Positions 1-57,000 of a DNA stretch of 64,000 nucleotides are shown here, one piece after another. A program made the position numbers. Numbering within the stretch: the stretch's first letter is position 1; each line of letters begins with the position of its first letter. Source of the DNA: Elusimicrobiota bacterium (GTDB lineage Bacteria; Elusimicrobiota; Elusimicrobia; UBA1565); the NCBI GenBank assembly GCA_043827405.1, contig JBDRPD010000105.1, positions 32,001 to 96,000 on the forward strand. Direction: 5' to 3'.

Positions 1-3000
1 TCTGGTTGACCGAATTCCTAATCTCCGTTAAGTTGCCGATATCGTCGGATTTTAGGTCGTCCAGGATGTCCTCGATCCAGCCGGATTCCTCGACCATAAT
101 GGCGACCGGGTTGTTGATCTCGTGCGCGATGCCCGCGGCGAGTTCGCCGATGGACGCCAGCTTGCCGGCTTCAACGATCTTCTCGCTCATCAGCTCCCGG
201 GCGCGAGCGCCTTCAGTCAGCCGCTGCACGACTCGCCGGGAGAGGTAGGTCGCGATGAGGATGATGAGGATGACGCCGAGCAGACAGACGGTGAGCGAGA
301 TTCTGCGGGCTCGGTACAGGCTGGCGTAGGCGTCGCTCTCGTCCTGCTGATAGACGAGAGCCCAGGCGTCATTCTTGAGCAGCGTGGTCACGTAGATGGC
401 CGTCTTGCCGTAATCGGGGTTCTTATCGGTGAAAATGCCCACCGGGCGGACGGCGCGGGAGCGGTCCGTCTTGCCCGCCGCCCAGCCCTTGCGGGACGCC
501 CGCGAGCTTTTTTCCCAAATAAAATCCTGCAGAACGGGGATGTAGGAAGTGACGTCGATTTTGGGCTGGGTCTGGAATTCCCCCTCGCGGTTGATGATAA
601 AGGCCATCCCGGTCTTGCCCAGACGGATATCCTCGATGAGATGGTTGAAGGCGACGAAGTCGATGGTGGCGCGCAGTATGCGGCTCTCTCCCGCGCTCTC
701 GGATTTGACGGCGACGACAAAGTGGGGCAGCCTGCGGATGCCCAGGAAGACATCGCTGATATAGACCTGGTTCGCCATGGTTTCCTTGAACCATTTGGCG
801 TTTCCATAGTCGGCCTTGCCGAGAGCGAAGGGGCCGGCGTACGCCAGCTGTTTCCCCTGCGTGTCGAGGAGGCCGAGATCGACGAAGACGCCGCCATGCT
901 GCTCCTGCAGGTGCTTTAGGACGTTCGCCAGGAATTTTGAATCCTTGAGCTGCCGGTTCGAGTACAGACGGGTCAATACTTTGATGTCGGCGAGTTTTTC
1001 GTTGAGGAAGCCGTCGATCGTGAGCGCTTCCTTCTCAACGGTCTGGACCATGTAGGCAAGAACTTTCGCCCTATAAGTCGTATGGAATTCGTAGCCGATA
1101 ACGGCCATTACCAGCAGCAGGGGAGTTAAGGACCCGATCAGCACAATGCTGATCATGCTCCTCTTTATGCTGTGGTAGCGGTTCTTTAAGTCCTTCTCAT
1201 CACCGTCCATGAATTTCCAATTAACGCATCAATGCTGATGTGGGCAAGAGGTTTAATAGAAGAAATATATTACGGTTAGCTCAACCGTGAGAAATAGCAC
1301 CGTCATGACGGCGCCCGCCTTGGCGTAGTCCACCGTGCGGTAGCCGCCCGGGCGCATGATGAGCGCGTTGACCTGATGCGTCGGCAGGATGAAGGTGTTG
1401 GACGCGGAGAGCCCGACGACCAGGGCGGCCATCCGGGGATCTCCCCCCGCCATAACCGCCATGTTCATGCACAGCGGCACAAGCAGCACCGTGGCGCCGA
1501 CGTTGGAGATCACCAACGTGAAGAAGGAGGTCATGATGCCGACGACCGTGAGCAGCATGATCGGAGACGGCTGGCCGATCATGGCCAGCACGCCGTGGGC
1601 GATGAAGGCCGCGGTTCCGGTCTTTTCAAAGGCGATGCCCAGCGGGATGAGCCCCGCCAGGAGAAACACCGTCATCCAGTCCACCGAGCGGTAGGCTTCG
1701 TCGATCGAGAGGACGCCGCTGATGATCATCCCCAGGGCGCCCGACATCAGCGCGACCGACAGCTGGGCCTTGAAGAAGATGATCTGGCATAGGGCCAGCA
1801 GCAGCCAGAATACCGCGAACAGCGCCTTTTCCGGGCGCAGGATCTCCCCTTCCAGCGGGGTGGCGAAGGTCAGGATGCGCGGCTGCGGCAGGTTCTTCAG
1901 GATGTGGAAGCGCGCCCACTGCCCCTGCATCAGAATCGAGTCCCCTACCTGCAGCTGCATATTGGTATGGCCGCTGTAGAATACGCGGCGCGCCCGGACC
2001 AGCGCCACGGGATTGAGCTGGAAGCGTCCTTTGAGGTTGCTTTCGCGGATGGTCTTGCCGATGACCGCGGAGCGGGGCGAGACGATGGTCTCGGCCATGC
2101 CGGCATTGGTGCGCGACAGCTCCTCGGCGAATACGTCCAGGCCTTCCATGAGCTTCCAGCCCTTCTCCTCGGCCAGCTTGCGGATATTCTTCTCCCGGCC
2201 GACTATAGCCAAGGCGTCGCCGGCCGCGATCATGGTGGTGCTCTTGGGCACGAAGTTCTTGTCCTTCTGTCCTTTGTGATGGACGGCGACGACGCAGATC
2301 AGATACCGAGTCTGCAGATCCAGCTGCTCCAGGCTCTGCGGCTCCTGGAAGTCATCGGGCACGTGGACTTCAAACGTCGTCTCCAGCGCGCGGTACTGCT
2401 CCAGCAGCGTCGCCGTCGCGCCCTTGTCGGCCTCTCCGGTCTCGGCGGGCAGGACGAAGCGGCCGAAAAAGGCGAAGTAGAGCAGGGCCGATCCCAGAAG
2501 ACAGACGCCGATCGGCGTCTGGGTGAAGAGGCCGAACGGCTCCAAGTGCTTGCCGTCGAGCACCAGCAGGTCGTTGAGCAGGATGGTGGGGCTGGCGCCG
2601 ACGAGGGTGATGGTGCCGCCGATGATGGCGCAGAATCCCATCGGCATGAGGATGCGCGAAGACGGGACCGCGACGCGCTTGGAAATACGCAGGGCCGCGG
2701 GGAGAAACAGCGCGGCGGCGCCGATATTCTGCATCATGCTGGAGATGATGCCCACCGTGCCGGCGATCAATACGAGAATCCGCTTTTCGCTGGCGCCGGC
2801 CAGCTTGATGATGGGCCGCGCCACCTGGTTCATGACGCCGGTCTTGTCGAGCCCCGCGCCGATGATGATTACGGCGATGATGGAGCAGACCGCATTGCTG
2901 CTCAGGCCGACGAAAGCTTCTGACGCATTGATCAGGCCGAGCATGGGCAGCATGACCATCATAATGATGCCCACCACATCGACGCGAATCCATTCGGATA

Positions 3001-54000: not shown

Positions 54001-57000
54001 CGGTGCTCGCCTTCATGATCCTGTGGGGCCTCAAGCGGCTGAATCCCAAAATTCCCAATGTGCTGGTCTGCGTCGTCGTCACTACCGTCATCGCGAAGGT
54101 CATCGGCTTTGAGCAGAACCATACGGCGCCGCTTGACGCGATCAGAGTGCCGGAAGTCCGGCAGCGGGTCAGGAAGTTTAACCAGGCCTTGGCCGACTTC
54201 GAGCGGCTCAGCGCCGAACGGATCGAGCTTGTCGCGAAAAGCAAGGAGCAGGAGAAGAAGCATGCGCTGGGCCATGCGGATGTTTTGACGCTCCAGCATG
54301 AGATCAGTCTCCACCATCTGGCGATCAAGGAGCTGAAGGATGAGATATTTTTCGATCGCGCCTATCTCCGTTCTGTCCATTTAGCGGCGGTCGGAGATGG
54401 CGACGACGGCCGAAGATTCTATTTTGTGGGACGGCTTTCCCCCAAGCCGCGTGACGAGATTCGGCACTGGCGCATCAAGGTCGGGAACGAGCCGATAGAC
54501 GAGAAAATGGTCAAATTTACCGGCGGCGGCGCGGTGGTCGGAGTCATCCCGCGGGGACTGCCCCGGTTCAAGACGCCGAAGATCGATCTGGCGATGATCT
54601 TCAGCCTCCTGCCTATGGCCGTCATCATTTCTTTGCTCGGCTTCATGGAGGCGATCTCCATCGCCAAGGCGATGGCCGCCAAGAGCGGTCAGCGTCTGGA
54701 CCCCAACCAGGAGCTGATCGGCCAGGGTTTGGCCAATATCGCCGGCTCGTTCGGCCAAAGCTATCCGGTGAGCGGTTCTTTTTCCCGTTCCGCGGTCAAC
54801 TTTCAGGCCGGCGCGGTCAGCGGGCTCTCCAACGTGTTCAGCGCCGGTCTGGTGGTAGTTACGCTGCTGTTTTTTACCCCGCTGCTCTATCATCTGCCGC
54901 AAGCCGTTCTGGCGGCCATCATTATGATGGCGGTGATCGGCCTTATTAATATCCGCGGCTTCATTCATGCTTGGCAGGCGCAGAAGCATGACGGGATCGT
55001 CGTGCTGATTACCTTCATCGCGACTTTGGCTTTCGCGCCGCATTTGGACCGCGGCATCTTTATCGGGGTGGCCTTGTCGGTTGCCTTCTATCTTTATCGG
55101 ACCATGAAGCCCGATATCGCGATCCTGTCCAAGTACTCGGATGGCGCCTATCGCGCATCAAGCCGTTTTAATTTGGAGCGCTGCAAGTATATCGCCGTGA
55201 TTCGCTGCAACAGTTCTCTGTTTTTCGCCAACGTAAACTATCTCGAGGAGGAGATCCTTGACCGGGTCGCGAGCATGCCCCGGCTTAAGCATGTGCACAT
55301 CGTGGGCAACGGCATCAATGAGCTCGACGCCTCGGGCGAGGGCCTCCTGTCGATGATAGTCGACCGCATGCGCGAGGCCGGTTTCGGCCTATCCCTCTCC
55401 GGGCTCAACGACGGGGTGCTTGACGTCATGCGGCGCACCGGGCTGTATGAGAAGATCGGGGAGGAGAACCTTTATCGCAGCGTCACCTTCACCCTGGAAA
55501 ACATTTATCGGAGATGCCATGACGGTTCCGACGAAGAGTCATGTCCGCTGGTGAATGTGGTATTCAAGGGTCTGCCGGTCTCGAGCGGGAAGAAGAAATC
55601 CAAGCGTGAGGATTAGGTTATGGATCTAATGGAGATCAAACAGACAGAAGAGAAGACGTTCAGCATCGAGATCAGAGGCCATAAGGTCATCACCGACATG
55701 CACAAGGAGGACGGCGGCGGCGATATCGGCATGAACCCGCTTGAGCTGATGGTCGGTTCTTTGGGCGGCTGCATCGGCTTGAAACTGCAGCAATACTGCC
55801 GGGCGCATGATCTGCCGTCCGAAGGGATCGTGGTCAATGCGGTGACGACTCTGGCGTCCAAGCCGGTGCGCATCGCCAATATCGCGATCGATATCACTTT
55901 GCCCGAAGGATTCCCCAAGGAGAAGCGTGATGCGGCGCTGCGGGTCGCGCATACCTGTCCCATCCACGCGACGCTGAAAAATCCCCCGGAGCTGGATATC
56001 GAGATCGTCTCTTAGGCGGGAGGGTTCTTCGCGACCTTCTCGATATTGCAGACTTTGTACAGCTCGTGGAGCATCTCCACGGTGCGCGCCACGCCCACGA
56101 CTTTCCCGTTCTTCATCACGGGGAGGAAGCTGGAGTCCGAGTCCACGATCTTATTCATCATCTTGACGATGTCGTCCTCGTAGTCTACGGTGTCCGTGAT
56201 GGGGCGCATGACATCGGTTACCGAGCGCTTGAAGTTGCCCAGTACCTTGTCGATGATAATGTCCAGCTGGGGTTCATCGTCGCCGCTTAGATAGCCGGGC
56301 AGCATGAGATTGGCGAGGCCTTCCGGGTCCAACCCTCTCAGGATGTCGCGGCGCCGTACCTTGCCCATCAGCTCGTGCTTCTCGTTAAAGACAAGGATCA
56401 CGCGCGGCAGTGATTTTTTACCGTCGATTTCCAGCTGGAATTTCTCCATTTCCGTCAGCGCCTGACAGAGGCTGTAGGTATGCGGGATATGGGGATACTC
56501 GTCCAACGGAATCATCAAATCTTTTGCTTTTTCCAGCTCCATTTCTTTTACCTCTTGTCCGGTCATTATGGTAAGAAAATGCGCCCTTCTTGTCTATATA
56601 GCGCAGTTTATTGGGATAGGCCCTTAGGCCTAGATGCGGATGGGCCATAATCCTCATGATTTTATTCATGATCCGGGCCATAATAATGCAAGTAAACTGC
56701 GTCGTTGGATATCGAAAGAAGAAGCAAGGCGAGGACCTGGTCCCGCCTTGTTTTTCTTTGCAGGGGGTATTAAGGAAGGGAAAGCCCTCGTGCGAAGAAA
56801 AGCTTTATTAATTAGTCTTTTTCTTCAAGTCCAGGCTTAGCGCTTCGATTGATTCCATAAACCGCTTCAGCTGCTGGCTGCGGAGCGCGGGACGGTCATA
56901 GGTGTATACGGCCGTGATGATGTAATTGCGGCCGAGGATCGTGAAGTAGTCATGGTGGGCGTCCGACCGGCTGGTTTCACGGCCGGCGATGCCGTTGCAG

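What a model noticed while it worked through the whole genome (the two positions that open the first line are those of the whole stretch)
1..55616. Complete dissimilatory sulfate reduction pathway, next to hgcAB, in an Elusimicrobiota genome
C105 carries the genes of dissimilatory sulfate reduction: qmoABC-like genes (g03509-11), dsrAB (g03512-13), dsrD (g03514), dsrN, dsrC with both C-terminal cysteines (g03517), dsrMKJOP (g03519-23), Hmc and Tmc complexes, aprBA (g03557-58) and a sulfate transporter. sat (g02686, C81) and a membrane pyrophosphatase lie elsewhere. DsrAB are 53-61% identical to those of the sulfate reducers Desulfovibrio and Archaeoglobus. The mercury-methylation pair hgcAB (g03493-94) lies 20 kb away on the same contig. 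The organism is thus predicted to be a sulfate-reducing, Hg-methylating Elusimicrobiota. The genes sit in a low-GC island inside a native contig.
Evidence so far: Identities from the table rows: DsrA 60.8% to A. fulgidus and 58.2% to D. vulgaris; DsrB 52.9%; DsrC 53.3%; AprA 49.8% and AprB 60.6% to M. gigas; HgcA 49.2% to G. sulfurreducens. Rarity, from relatives.tsv: DsrC is found in 1 of 16 family, 3 of 100 order and 6 of 533 phylum genomes, and APS-reductase_C has the same counts. Composition: the ends of C105 (0-20 kb and 100-115 kb) have GC 0.644-0.648 and a tetranucleotide distance of 0.010-0.014 from the genome mean, while the middle 20-100 kb has GC 0.58-0.61 and a distance of 0.016-0.027. 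The finding spans contig positions 18156 to 87616; this window holds only 32001 to 87616 of it.
(Added by a program. Inside this text positions count along the whole contig: contig position 32,001 is position 1 of the stretch shown here. "Call 12" and the like, gene names such as g00115 and contig names such as C1 are that model's own, and its searches are not shown. The text may have been shortened before it was handed on; [...] marks where a part breaks off. The agent that wrote the report below was given it as the finding of a first reader that could run no searches.)

Follow-up and report, generated by a model that had tools for sequence, protein, structure and literature searches.

The report
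Sulfate-respiring gene set in Elusimicrobiota
An uncultured groundwater bacterium, from a phylum not listed among sulfate reducers, carries an intact set of sulfate-respiration genes that a few distant relatives share, so this phylum probably includes sulfate breathers, and this one may also breathe oxygen or nitrate and methylate mercury.

Summary
Confirmed, with corrections. A chimera is unlikely: pgk on the contig is Elusimicrobia-like, and a syntenic cluster occurs in other genomes, including a 47%-GC single-cell genome. The five DsrAB form one clade (100/99) among Zixibacteria/Ignavibacteria reductive DsrAB, apart from oxidative types. DsrL has the type-2 YRR motif and DsrE was not found. 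The DsrD call rests on synteny, fold and profile-profile similarity; Pfam misses it.

Corrections: the core genes have host-like codon use, so 'low-GC island' overstates recency. hgcAB is not part of the shared cluster. The genome's only sat is not the cluster orthologue. The genome also encodes ACIII with an aa3-type oxidase, cytochrome bd and NapA, which suggests a facultative sulfate reducer.

The pathway type is known. The host phylum is absent from a 950-genome census, though one Elusimicrobia assembly with a different, dsrEFH-type cluster is in print. Earlier scan notes found this cluster type in other phyla only. No activity is shown.

The parts
2..4030 (-). Sensor kinase (3' part of the gene lies outside the window), DASS-family anion transporter (1253-3097), response regulator (3167-4030)
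   Evidence: transporter and regulator have orthologues in the G442 cluster at 80% and 63%
4174..5334 (+). qmoC
   Evidence: NF038018 402 bits, cut-off 300
5375..6637 (+). qmoA (HdrA-like flavoprotein)
   Evidence: 75-79% to orthologues in G344, G430, G442
6641..8866 (+). qmoB (HdrA-like plus FlpD domain)
9012..10223 (+). dsrA, reductive bacterial type
   Evidence: TIGR02064 591 bits; CX5C and CX3C sirohaem-cluster motifs; tree
10251..11336 (+). dsrB
   Evidence: TIGR02066 508 bits; trees
11352..11600 (+). Divergent DsrD homologue, 82 aa, winged helix
   Evidence: follows dsrB in 77 of 80 loci; hhalign to canonical DsrD 87%, E 3.9e-6, above 100 shuffles; winged-helix model, pLDDT 90.5; no Pfam DsrD hit
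11723..13141 (+). dsrN (sirohaem amidase, CbiA/CobB family)
13158..14831 (+). dsrL, type 2 (YRR at residues 297-299), 2C by context
14877..15194 (+). dsrC with both C-terminal cysteines
15268..15828 (+). dsrT (RsbRD_N domain)
   Evidence: PF14361; position before dsrM
15825..20762 (+). dsrM, dsrK, dsrJ (3 CxxCH), dsrO, dsrP
   Evidence: all five over NCBIfam cut-offs; motifs
20812..27726 (.). Insert found only in G000, between dsrP and cysG (LysR, GreA-like, peptidoglycan-binding, pilin, Kef antiporter, thioesterase); GC3 0.74
   Evidence: dsrP and cysG are adjacent in G344, G430 and G442
27767..29942 (+). Sirohaem synthesis: precorrin-2 dehydrogenase (CysG N-terminal domain) and CobA-HemD fusion
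30081..35721 (+). HTH regulator, macro domain, TmcC-like membrane protein, HmcF/TmcB-like Fe-S protein with receiver domain, kinase and DivK-like regulator
   Evidence: first four genes shared with G344 and G430
35727..42925 (-). Hybrid operon tmcD-tmcC-tmcB-hmcB-hmcC-hmcA (16 haems)
   Evidence: same order in G442
42929..46456 (-). MerR-type regulator, PAS kinase and three DVU0259-like response regulators
   Evidence: kinase and the three regulators shared with G442
46419..49416 (-). Second DsrM-like/DsrK-like pair, below the DsrK cut-off (319 vs 400), with a MerR-type regulator
   Evidence: DsrK-like protein 82% to G442
49492..50628 (-). Two conserved genes behind aprA (CxxCxxCC protein and an 88-aa unknown)
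50708..53069 (-). aprB-aprA; the sat that precedes aprB in four relatives is missing here
   Evidence: TIGR02061 908 bits, TIGR02060 197 bits
53370..55616 (+). SulP sulfate permease
   Evidence: TIGR00815 455 bits; 65-76% to G344, G430, G442
60346..63155 (-). Host anchor beside the cluster: tRNA-Leu, secG, pgk, gap
   Evidence: 25 of 25 organism-named Pgk homologues are Elusimicrobia/Elusimicrobiota

Best explanation
This is a real, chromosomal, long-resident gene set for dissimilatory sulfate reduction, of the reductive 'DsrD + DsrL-2C, no DsrEFH' kind, in an Elusimicrobiota bacterium. Inferred mechanism, from established knowledge of these families: SulP/DASS import sulfate. Sat makes APS, pulled by a membrane pyrophosphatase. 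AprAB reduces APS to sulfite with quinol electrons through QmoABC. DsrAB, activated by DsrD and fed from NADPH through DsrL-2, turns sulfite into DsrC-trisulfide. DsrMKJOP reduces that to sulfide. The Hmc/Tmc hybrid links periplasmic cytochromes to this pool. The cluster entered from the Zixibacteria/Ignavibacteria-type pool, probably once, and is now patchy through loss and perhaps transfer within the phylum. Because G000 also encodes ACIII with an aa3-type oxidase, cytochrome bd and NapA, it most likely switches between sulfate, oxygen and nitrate. hgcAB makes it a predicted Hg methylator, but as a separate trait. Shown: genes, intactness, tree position, sharing among genomes. Inferred: direction, activity, switching.
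For: Full gene set over curated cut-offs. DsrAB tree: five Elusimicrobiota rows form one clade at 100/99, nested among Zixibacteria/Ignavibacteria rows, with the oxidative rows split off at 100/100; a five-protein tree gives the same clade. DsrL has YRR and groups with Zixibacteria DsrL. DsrE in 0 of 5 dsr genomes, against 4 of 4 oxidative-type genomes. One dsrAB copy only. DsrD homology. The set meets the published rule for sulfate reduction (PMC6018805 Table 2). Host: Pgk named relatives 25 of 25 Elusimicrobia; one reassembled contig bridges sulP to gap at even depth; syntenic clusters in G344, G430 and single-cell genome G442 at host GC. Precedent for switching: an acidobacterium with DsrD, DsrL-2, ACIII, caa3 and bd expressed the dsr genes under anoxia (PMC10564751). 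O2 and nitrate genes.
Against: No expression or physiology. The published rule cannot separate reducers from disproportionators or from organisms that run reductive Dsr backwards. The DsrD call fails Pfam (1 of 37 members, E 0.066) and the PDB profile search, and DsrD 1UCR is not among the fold-search rows shown. G000 lacks the cluster sat; its only sat is 43-44% identical to the relatives' cluster Sat and closest among solved structures to 1JHD/4DNX, recalled as enzymes of sulfur oxidisers. Only 3 of 101 order genomes carry dsrB. The tree has no basal or archaeal rows, and its 'Desulfobacterota' and 'Chlorobia' labels are inferred. No catabolic electron-donor route was pinned down: a group-3 NiFe hydrogenase, Rnf, Nqr and a lactate/glycolate dehydrogenase-like pair were seen, and CdhC was not found.
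Confidence: 0.78

Rival explanations
1. The reductive-type Dsr/Apr chain runs backwards, or both ways: sulfide or sulfur is oxidised to sulfate with nitrate (NapA) or O2 (ACIII-aa3), or sulfur compounds are disproportionated, as in Desulfurivibrio and cable bacteria.
For: NapA and an aa3-type oxidase in the same genome. The Sat is most like 1JHD/4DNX among solved structures (608 and 585 bits against 202 or less). The literature notes that genomes cannot exclude this.
Against: The closest named relatives of this Sat are Omnitrophota, Myxococcota, Deltaproteobacteria and Ignavibacteriaceae at 78-82%, so the type is not specific to oxidisers. DsrE not found. SoxB far below cut-off, 150 vs 550 bits. 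COX1 not found in 2 of 5 dsr genomes. DsrL-2C context.
Confidence: 0.13
2. In G000 the pathway mainly reduces sulfite or thiosulfate. The sulfate step is weak or decaying after loss of the cluster sat, and the C81 sat serves assimilation.
For: sat precedes aprB in G344, G430, G442 and G443 but not in G000, and no remnant was found. The C81 sat is unlinked and 300 bases from a contig end.
Against: aprAB, qmoABC and sulP are intact. aprA, qmoA and qmoB score in the top 12% for host-like codon use, and the C81 sat scores higher still (0.78; genome 90th percentile 0.64). No other order genome has this sat type (next best 46%), so it is not a family-wide assimilatory gene.
Confidence: 0.05
3. Artefact: C105 is a chimeric assembly, or the cluster is a mis-binned piece of a Zixibacteria/Ignavibacteria genome.
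For: Nearest non-Elusimicrobiota DsrB are 79-85% identical. GC is lower in the middle of the contig. The left junction, towards hgcAB, was not tested with reads.
Against: pgk, thrS and ileS are on the same contig and Pgk is Elusimicrobia-like. Even depth and a bridging contig (that run may be the source of the genome). A second study's run covers all 30 bins. Clusters from separate assemblies, one a single-cell genome, form one clade and match their host GC.
Confidence: 0.04

Closest known systems
Reductive Dsr cluster with DsrD and DsrL-2C of Zixibacteria, Acidobacteriota, Myxococcota and non-Chlorobia Bacteroidota (Diao et al. 2023, PMC10591310; 'group three' of PMC11406059)
   Same: Gene order dsrAB-D-N-L-C-T-MKJOP, DsrB 79-85% identical, same tree clade, YRR-type DsrL, DsrE not found.
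   Different: Host phylum: no mention of Elusimicrobi* in the main text or the held supplement of either paper. qmoC lies in front of qmoAB, which is not seen in the Zixibacteria/Ignavibacteria loci within 10 kb. The Hmc/Tmc hybrid is attached. sat is displaced in G000.
Elusimicrobia bacterium UBA10166 dsr cluster (Neukirchen et al. 2023, PMC10504309)
   Same: An assembly labelled Elusimicrobia with dsrAB, C, T, M, J, O, P.
   Different: There DsrAB is called basal, the order is dsrN-E-F-H-A-B-C-T/M-J-O-P-V-W, and DsrK was not found; no dsrD, dsrL or apr appears in the visible part of the row, which was cut. Here the type is reductive bacterial with D and L-2, without DsrE, with K, Apr, Qmo and Sat.
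Acidobacterium MAG CO124, facultative sulfate reducer (Dyksma and Pester 2023, PMC10564751)
   Same: DsrD plus DsrL-2, ACIII, caa3-type and bd oxidases in one genome.
   Different: Switching was shown there by transcription; nothing is measured here. G000 adds NapA, hgcAB and Hmc/Tmc.
Canonical Desulfobacterota pathway (Desulfovibrio vulgaris DsrAB 2V4J, DsrD 1UCR, Hmc, Tmc)
   Same: Same core enzymes; Hmc and Tmc subunits pass Desulfovibrio-derived models.
   Different: DsrA 54-65% and DsrB 53-63% identical in the 20 sampled loci. DsrD lacks the WSSGSTT motif and has YTYFGGSF instead. DsrL is present.
hgcAB of Elusimicrobia and the arsR-acr3-hgcAB arrangement
   Same: hgcA in Elusimicrobia is in print (PMC7438021). 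Here arsR-acr3-hgcA-hgcB with the cap-helix motif. The ars-hgc linkage is recalled from the literature, not checked.
   Different: Co-occurrence with a full dsr pathway; seen in G000 and G430 (on another contig there).

Membership tests
Dissimilatory sulfate reducer (rule of PMC6018805 Table 2) | aprBA and sat present | tested here: met
   sat is unlinked and not the cluster orthologue
Dissimilatory sulfate reducer (rule of PMC6018805 Table 2) | DsrAB cluster with reductive DsrAB | tested here: met
   (48 rows; oxidative rows apart at 100/100); reference labels inferred from gene content, no basal rows in that tree
Dissimilatory sulfate reducer (rule of PMC6018805 Table 2) | dsrD present | tested here: met
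   position behind dsrB, size, winged helix, hhalign 87% and E 3.9e-6 with controls; not detected by Pfam or by a PDB profile search
Dissimilatory sulfate reducer (rule of PMC6018805 Table 2) | dsrEFH absent | tested here: met
   DsrE (TIGR03012) 0 of 5 genomes, G000 98% complete; positive control; DsrF and DsrH not searched on their own
Dissimilatory sulfate reducer | Growth or sulfide production with sulfate as electron acceptor | not testable with these tools
   no culture or activity data
DsrD (PF08679, PDB 1UCR) | Closest fold match is DsrD itself | tested here: inconclusive
   winged-helix matches at Z 7.7-10; 1UCR not in the rows shown
DsrD (PF08679, PDB 1UCR) | Binds and activates DsrAB | not tested
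   no complex job sent; needs biochemistry
DsrL type 2 | YRR motif, N- and C-terminal ferredoxin domains, dsr context (PMC7596348) | tested here: met
   YRR at 297; three Cys-motif matches; 557 aa, between dsrN and dsrC
DsrL subcluster 2C | Falls in the 2C branch, near reductive dsrAB and dsrD (PMC10591310) | tested here: inconclusive
   groups with Zixibacteria DsrL and the context fits, but no named 2A/2B references were in the tree
DsrC (not TusE) | Two C-terminal cysteines, C-X10-C | tested here: met
Hmc and Tmc complexes | Complete HmcA-F and TmcA-D subunit sets | tested here: not met
   HmcA, B, C and TmcB (just under cut-off), C, D in one operon; no separate TmcA or HmcD hit among 69 window proteins
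HgcAB mercury methylation | HgcA cap-helix motif; adjacent HgcB with two 4Fe-4S motifs and C-terminal cysteines | tested here: met
Elusimicrobiota host | Housekeeping genes of the contig are Elusimicrobiota-like | tested here: met
   Pgk 25 of 25 named homologues; only this one gene was tested against names

The most novel reading that the evidence does not exclude
An Elusimicrobiota lineage uses one reductive-type DsrABD-L2 chain in both directions, reducing sulfate in anoxia and oxidising sulfide with nitrate or O2 through NapA and ACIII-aa3 when these appear. In G000 the cluster sat was swapped for one of the type used by sulfur oxidisers. The same cell methylates mercury, which would tie methylmercury production to redox-fluctuating aquifers through a phylum absent from sulfur-cycle censuses. 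The cluster would also have moved as a 60-80 kb block between lineages with only 57-58% RpoB identity.
Probability: 0.12. Interest if true: 0.8.

Novelty: new member of a known kind. Interest (0 to 1): 0.52.

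Why it matters
Elusimicrobiota are described as fermenters, acetogens and O2 or nitrate respirers; the main text of the 94-genome survey has no mention of dsr, sulfate or sulfite. A complete reductive pathway in at least five genomes, one from a single cell, adds a phylum to the 23 bacterial phyla of the 2023 census and gives a taxon for dsrAB survey sequences. G000 is a concrete candidate for a facultative sulfate/O2/nitrate respirer that can also methylate mercury in groundwater. The divergent DsrD is missed by Pfam, so screens that need a DsrD hit would mis-call these genomes. The biochemistry itself is known, which limits the surprise.

Tried and rejected
Pfam and PDB sequence searches did not identify the 82-aa protein as DsrD. 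Fold searches gave generic winged helices, and 1UCR was not among the rows shown. The homologue search with its profile listed only unnamed or 'hypothetical' proteins in the best 120.

The 50%-cluster representatives were mostly fragments and poor tree references; the tree that used 15 of them and their cluster members was a quick tree with long branches. No dsrA in plasmids. The viral-contig scan found none.

No RNA holder was listed for the dsr stretch. RNA run X4 gave only short pieces, many with mismatches. Neither is evidence on expression. Run X3 has a small share and is not used.

No direct repeat of the tRNA-Leu 3' end (14 bases or more) elsewhere on C105, so no sign of a recent tRNA-targeted integration.

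Vertical descent against transfer inside the phylum is unresolved: branches among the five are unsupported (39/10; AU p 0.07).

The hgcA search in G442 and G443 was blank with no control ringing. SQR was only looked for with a crude motif filter, with no clear candidate; this is not a test. No complex prediction was sent.

Rejected: 'recent low-GC island' (GC3 is host-like), 'hgcAB part of the cluster', 'two full Hmc and Tmc complexes'.

PMC7785019 is not held; its bioRxiv version was read in passages and its supplements are closed, so a dsr entry there cannot be excluded.

Full report
Observation. I scanned 69 of the 269 listed ORFs against NCBIfam and Pfam and added the qmoC frame later. The window carries qmoC-qmoA-qmoB, dsrA, dsrB, an 82-aa gene, dsrN, dsrL, dsrC, dsrT and dsrMKJOP on one strand with gaps of -8 to 145 bases. 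Then come sirohaem genes, an operon tmcD-C-B-hmcB-C-A, a second DsrM/K-like pair, aprBA and sulP. DsrA, DsrB, DsrC, M, K, J, O, P, QmoC, AprA, AprB, HmcA, B, C, TmcC and TmcD pass their cut-offs; TmcB misses by 12 bits. DsrA keeps the CX5C and CX3C motifs and, by my reading of the alignment to 3MM5, the substrate-binding Arg and Lys residues (their numbers are recalled). DsrC ends in C-X10-C. Outside the window: sat on C81, an H+-PPase on C47, and arsR-acr3-hgcA-hgcB at contig 17.8-20.5 kb with the NVWCAAGK motif.

Is it in this organism? Pgk, 5 kb beyond sulP, has 25 homologues with an organism name among the best 120 listed; all 25 are Elusimicrobia/Elusimicrobiota. thrS and ileS lie on the same contig. 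I laid four runs on window 44001-64000 only. In run X1, which may be the source of the genome, one 8,245-base contig spans the end of sulP to gap with 2 differences, and the eight longest pieces have depths of 13.6-22.9; the listed pieces leave a gap at 51713-52022. Run X2, from another study, has depth in 30 of 30 bins, with 0.5-1.1 kb pieces at depth 4-5 on both apr/sulP and pgk/gap. The hgcAB-side junction was not tested.

Other genomes. dsrB passes its cut-off in 3 of 101 order genomes: G000, G344 (same family) and G430 (another family). dsrA passes in 2 of 401 sampled phylum genomes. The named and unnamed sets may overlap, so I do not add them; the trees hold five distinct genomes including G000. 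G344, G430 and G442 share the run dsrAB to dsrP, then cysG and cobA, plus qmoCAB, aprBA and sulP; G442 also shares the Hmc/Tmc operon and several regulators. Flanking genes differ between genomes. G442 has 47% GC across both cluster and flanks; G344 and G430 about 65%. G442 and G443 are far from G000 (RpoB 58% and 57%). Their class gave 2 of 60 with dsrB and none of its handles had appeared in G000's phylum sample, so GTDB may file them apart from G000's phylum; their Elusimicrobiota label is the submitters'.

Direction. The DsrA+DsrB tree used the window, 30 of the 80 loci, 12 of 20 loci from a phylum in which 47 of 101 genomes pass the dsrA cut-off (taken as Desulfobacterota; 13 of the 20 loci gave a canonical DsrD whose profile hits 1UCR), 4 of 6 loci with dsrCABL order (taken as Chlorobia; DsrE confirmed in these four) and a phage rDsrA. 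The five Elusimicrobiota rows form one clade (100/99) inside a Zixibacteria/Ignavibacteria group; the oxidative rows split off at 100/100. No basal DsrAB was in this tree; in the quick DsrB tree the most divergent representatives lay far outside. DsrL has YRR, the type-2 motif tied to NADP(H) (PMC7596348, passages); 71 of 77 aligned rows have it and the six oxidative rows do not. DsrE was found in 0 of 5 dsr genomes. There is one dsrAB copy. SoxB is far below cut-off.

DsrD. The 82-aa gene follows dsrB in 77 of 80 loci. Against it: Pfam DsrD hits 1 of 37 aligned members at E 0.066, a PDB profile search misses 1UCR, and fold searches give only generic winged helices. For it: a confident winged-helix model, which is DsrD's fold (PMC8794893, passages), and hhalign to 13 canonical DsrD at 87%, E 3.9e-6 over 68 columns. 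Its score of 34.3 compares with at most 20.7 in 100 column shuffles, 18.6 reversed, and 15.9 for an ArsR profile. I take it as a divergent DsrD; activation of DsrAB is untested. With this the genome meets the rule for sulfate reduction in PMC6018805 (passages with Table 2), which also warns that disproportionators look the same.

'Low-GC island'. GC falls to 0.57-0.61. But GC3 is 0.841 in the qmo-dsr block and 0.838 in apr against 0.822 for all called genes; the drop there is at codon positions 1-2 (0.51 and 0.47 against 0.55). GC3 is low only in the Hmc/Tmc block (0.765), the sulP block (0.778) and an insert after dsrP (0.744) (genes called by my own hexamer model). The core is long resident or well adapted. 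The five-genome cluster tree is a star: identities are 77-82% among them whatever the RpoB distance, and 74-77% to a Zixibacteria locus. That fits one entry from outside with later spread or loss; the order of events is not resolved.

Sat. In G344, G430, G442 and G443 sat stands directly before aprB, and these Sats are 81-87% identical to each other. G000 has none there, and its only sat is 43-44% identical to them. It scores 608 bits against 1JHD, recalled as a sulfur-oxidiser enzyme, but its nearest named relatives are Omnitrophota, Myxococcota, Deltaproteobacteria and Ignavibacteriaceae at 78-82%. Its codon use is among the most host-like in the genome. I read it as a replacement that keeps the pathway complete.

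hgcAB. hgcA passes in 8 of 101 order genomes; two of these have dsrB. It was not found in G344 or in G442 and G443 (weak blank), and lies on another contig in G430. G000's HgcA is closest to G430's (61%, others 49-52%), which leaves some shared history open. The neighbourhood in G000 is real but not conserved.

Lifestyle. G000 encodes ACIII next to a cytochrome c oxidase subunit I with the YSHP motif, cytochrome bd, napA-napD on C105, pntAB on C105 (a possible NADPH source for DsrL-2, inference), Rnf, Nqr, a group-3 NiFe hydrogenase and an AioA-family molybdoenzyme. CdhC was not found. This matches acidobacterium CO124, whose dsr genes rose in anoxia and whose caa3/ACIII genes rose with O2 (PMC10564751, passages). 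COX1-family hits were in 3 of 5 dsr genomes and bd in 4 of 5, so aerobic capacity is not universal in the group.

What is in print. Searches. Diao et al. 2023 (PMC10591310; passages, part of section 5, one supplement searched) and PMC11406059 (passages, one supplement searched) have no Elusimicrobi* mention. Neukirchen et al. 2023 (PMC10504309; passages and one supplement row) list one Elusimicrobia assembly with basal DsrAB, dsrEFH and no DsrK: a different system. The 94-genome survey (10.1101/765248, passages; supplements closed) has no dsr, sulfate or sulfite in its main text. Elusimicrobia with hgcA are known (PMC7438021, passages). Passages of PMC11484514 (also section 14 and supplement rows), PMC12740246, PMC8357290, PMC8103211, PMC11300587 and 10.1101/2024.04.27.591411 assign no dsr to this phylum. 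Subscription papers are not covered. Earlier scan notes describe this cluster type in FCB-group genomes, none in Elusimicrobiota.

Verdict. A known kind of pathway in a new host phylum, real and replicated. Confidence in sulfate reduction 0.78; interest 0.52.

Noticed in passing
G000:C81:47455-48651 (L038:1471-2667): The only sat is a replacement, 43-44% identical to the cluster Sat of relatives, with very host-like codon use, 300 bases from the contig end.
   Followed up: yes
G000:C105:14638-20544 (L001, L002): napD-napA and a 4-haem cytochrome lie back to back with arsR and acr3-hgcA-hgcB; pntAB is next to them.
   Followed up: partly
G000:C25:36500-52300 (L233, L251): Alternative complex III followed by an aa3-type oxidase with the YSHP (A2-type, label recalled) motif.
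   Followed up: partly
G000:C53:89227-94634 (L236): AioA/AioB-family molybdoenzyme beside a di-haem peroxidase-like gene; may be an iodate reductase or arsenite oxidase.
   Followed up: no
G000:C12:587-8837 (L244): Decahaem cytochrome, a 689-aa unknown and 11- and 19-haem proteins: possible extracellular electron transfer conduit.
   Followed up: no
window 20812-27726: A 7-kb insert with low GC3 splits dsrP from cysG, which are adjacent in three relatives; it holds a pilin and a GreA-like gene.
   Followed up: partly
window 32145-33887: HmcF/TmcB-like Fe-S protein fused to a response-regulator receiver domain, 79-82% conserved in G344 and G430.
   Followed up: no
G344:C222:32374-34996 and G430:C19:208-5127: Extra dsrC-like and DsrK-like genes (in G344 also DsrM-like) at 28-38% identity with HTH regulators, not present in this form in G000.
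   Followed up: no
L291 (G297:C50) and L295 (G435:C177): Two genomes of one genus in the order have aprA over cut-off, G297 with a sat beside it, but no dsrB was found.
   Followed up: no
L036:3366-3815 (contig about 21.2-21.65 kb): Short tandem repeat (read as LSADLL-like units) between hgcB and the first cluster-associated regulators.
   Followed up: no
P0187-P0306: The divergent DsrD family is large (6,840 of 8,000 scored candidates) and is labelled 'hypothetical protein' wherever named in the best 120.
   Followed up: partly
L006-L013: Eight phylum genomes have weak dsrA-like hits (E 1e-30 to 1e-18, 300-425 aa frames), probably AsrC-like or Dsr-like proteins.
   Followed up: no
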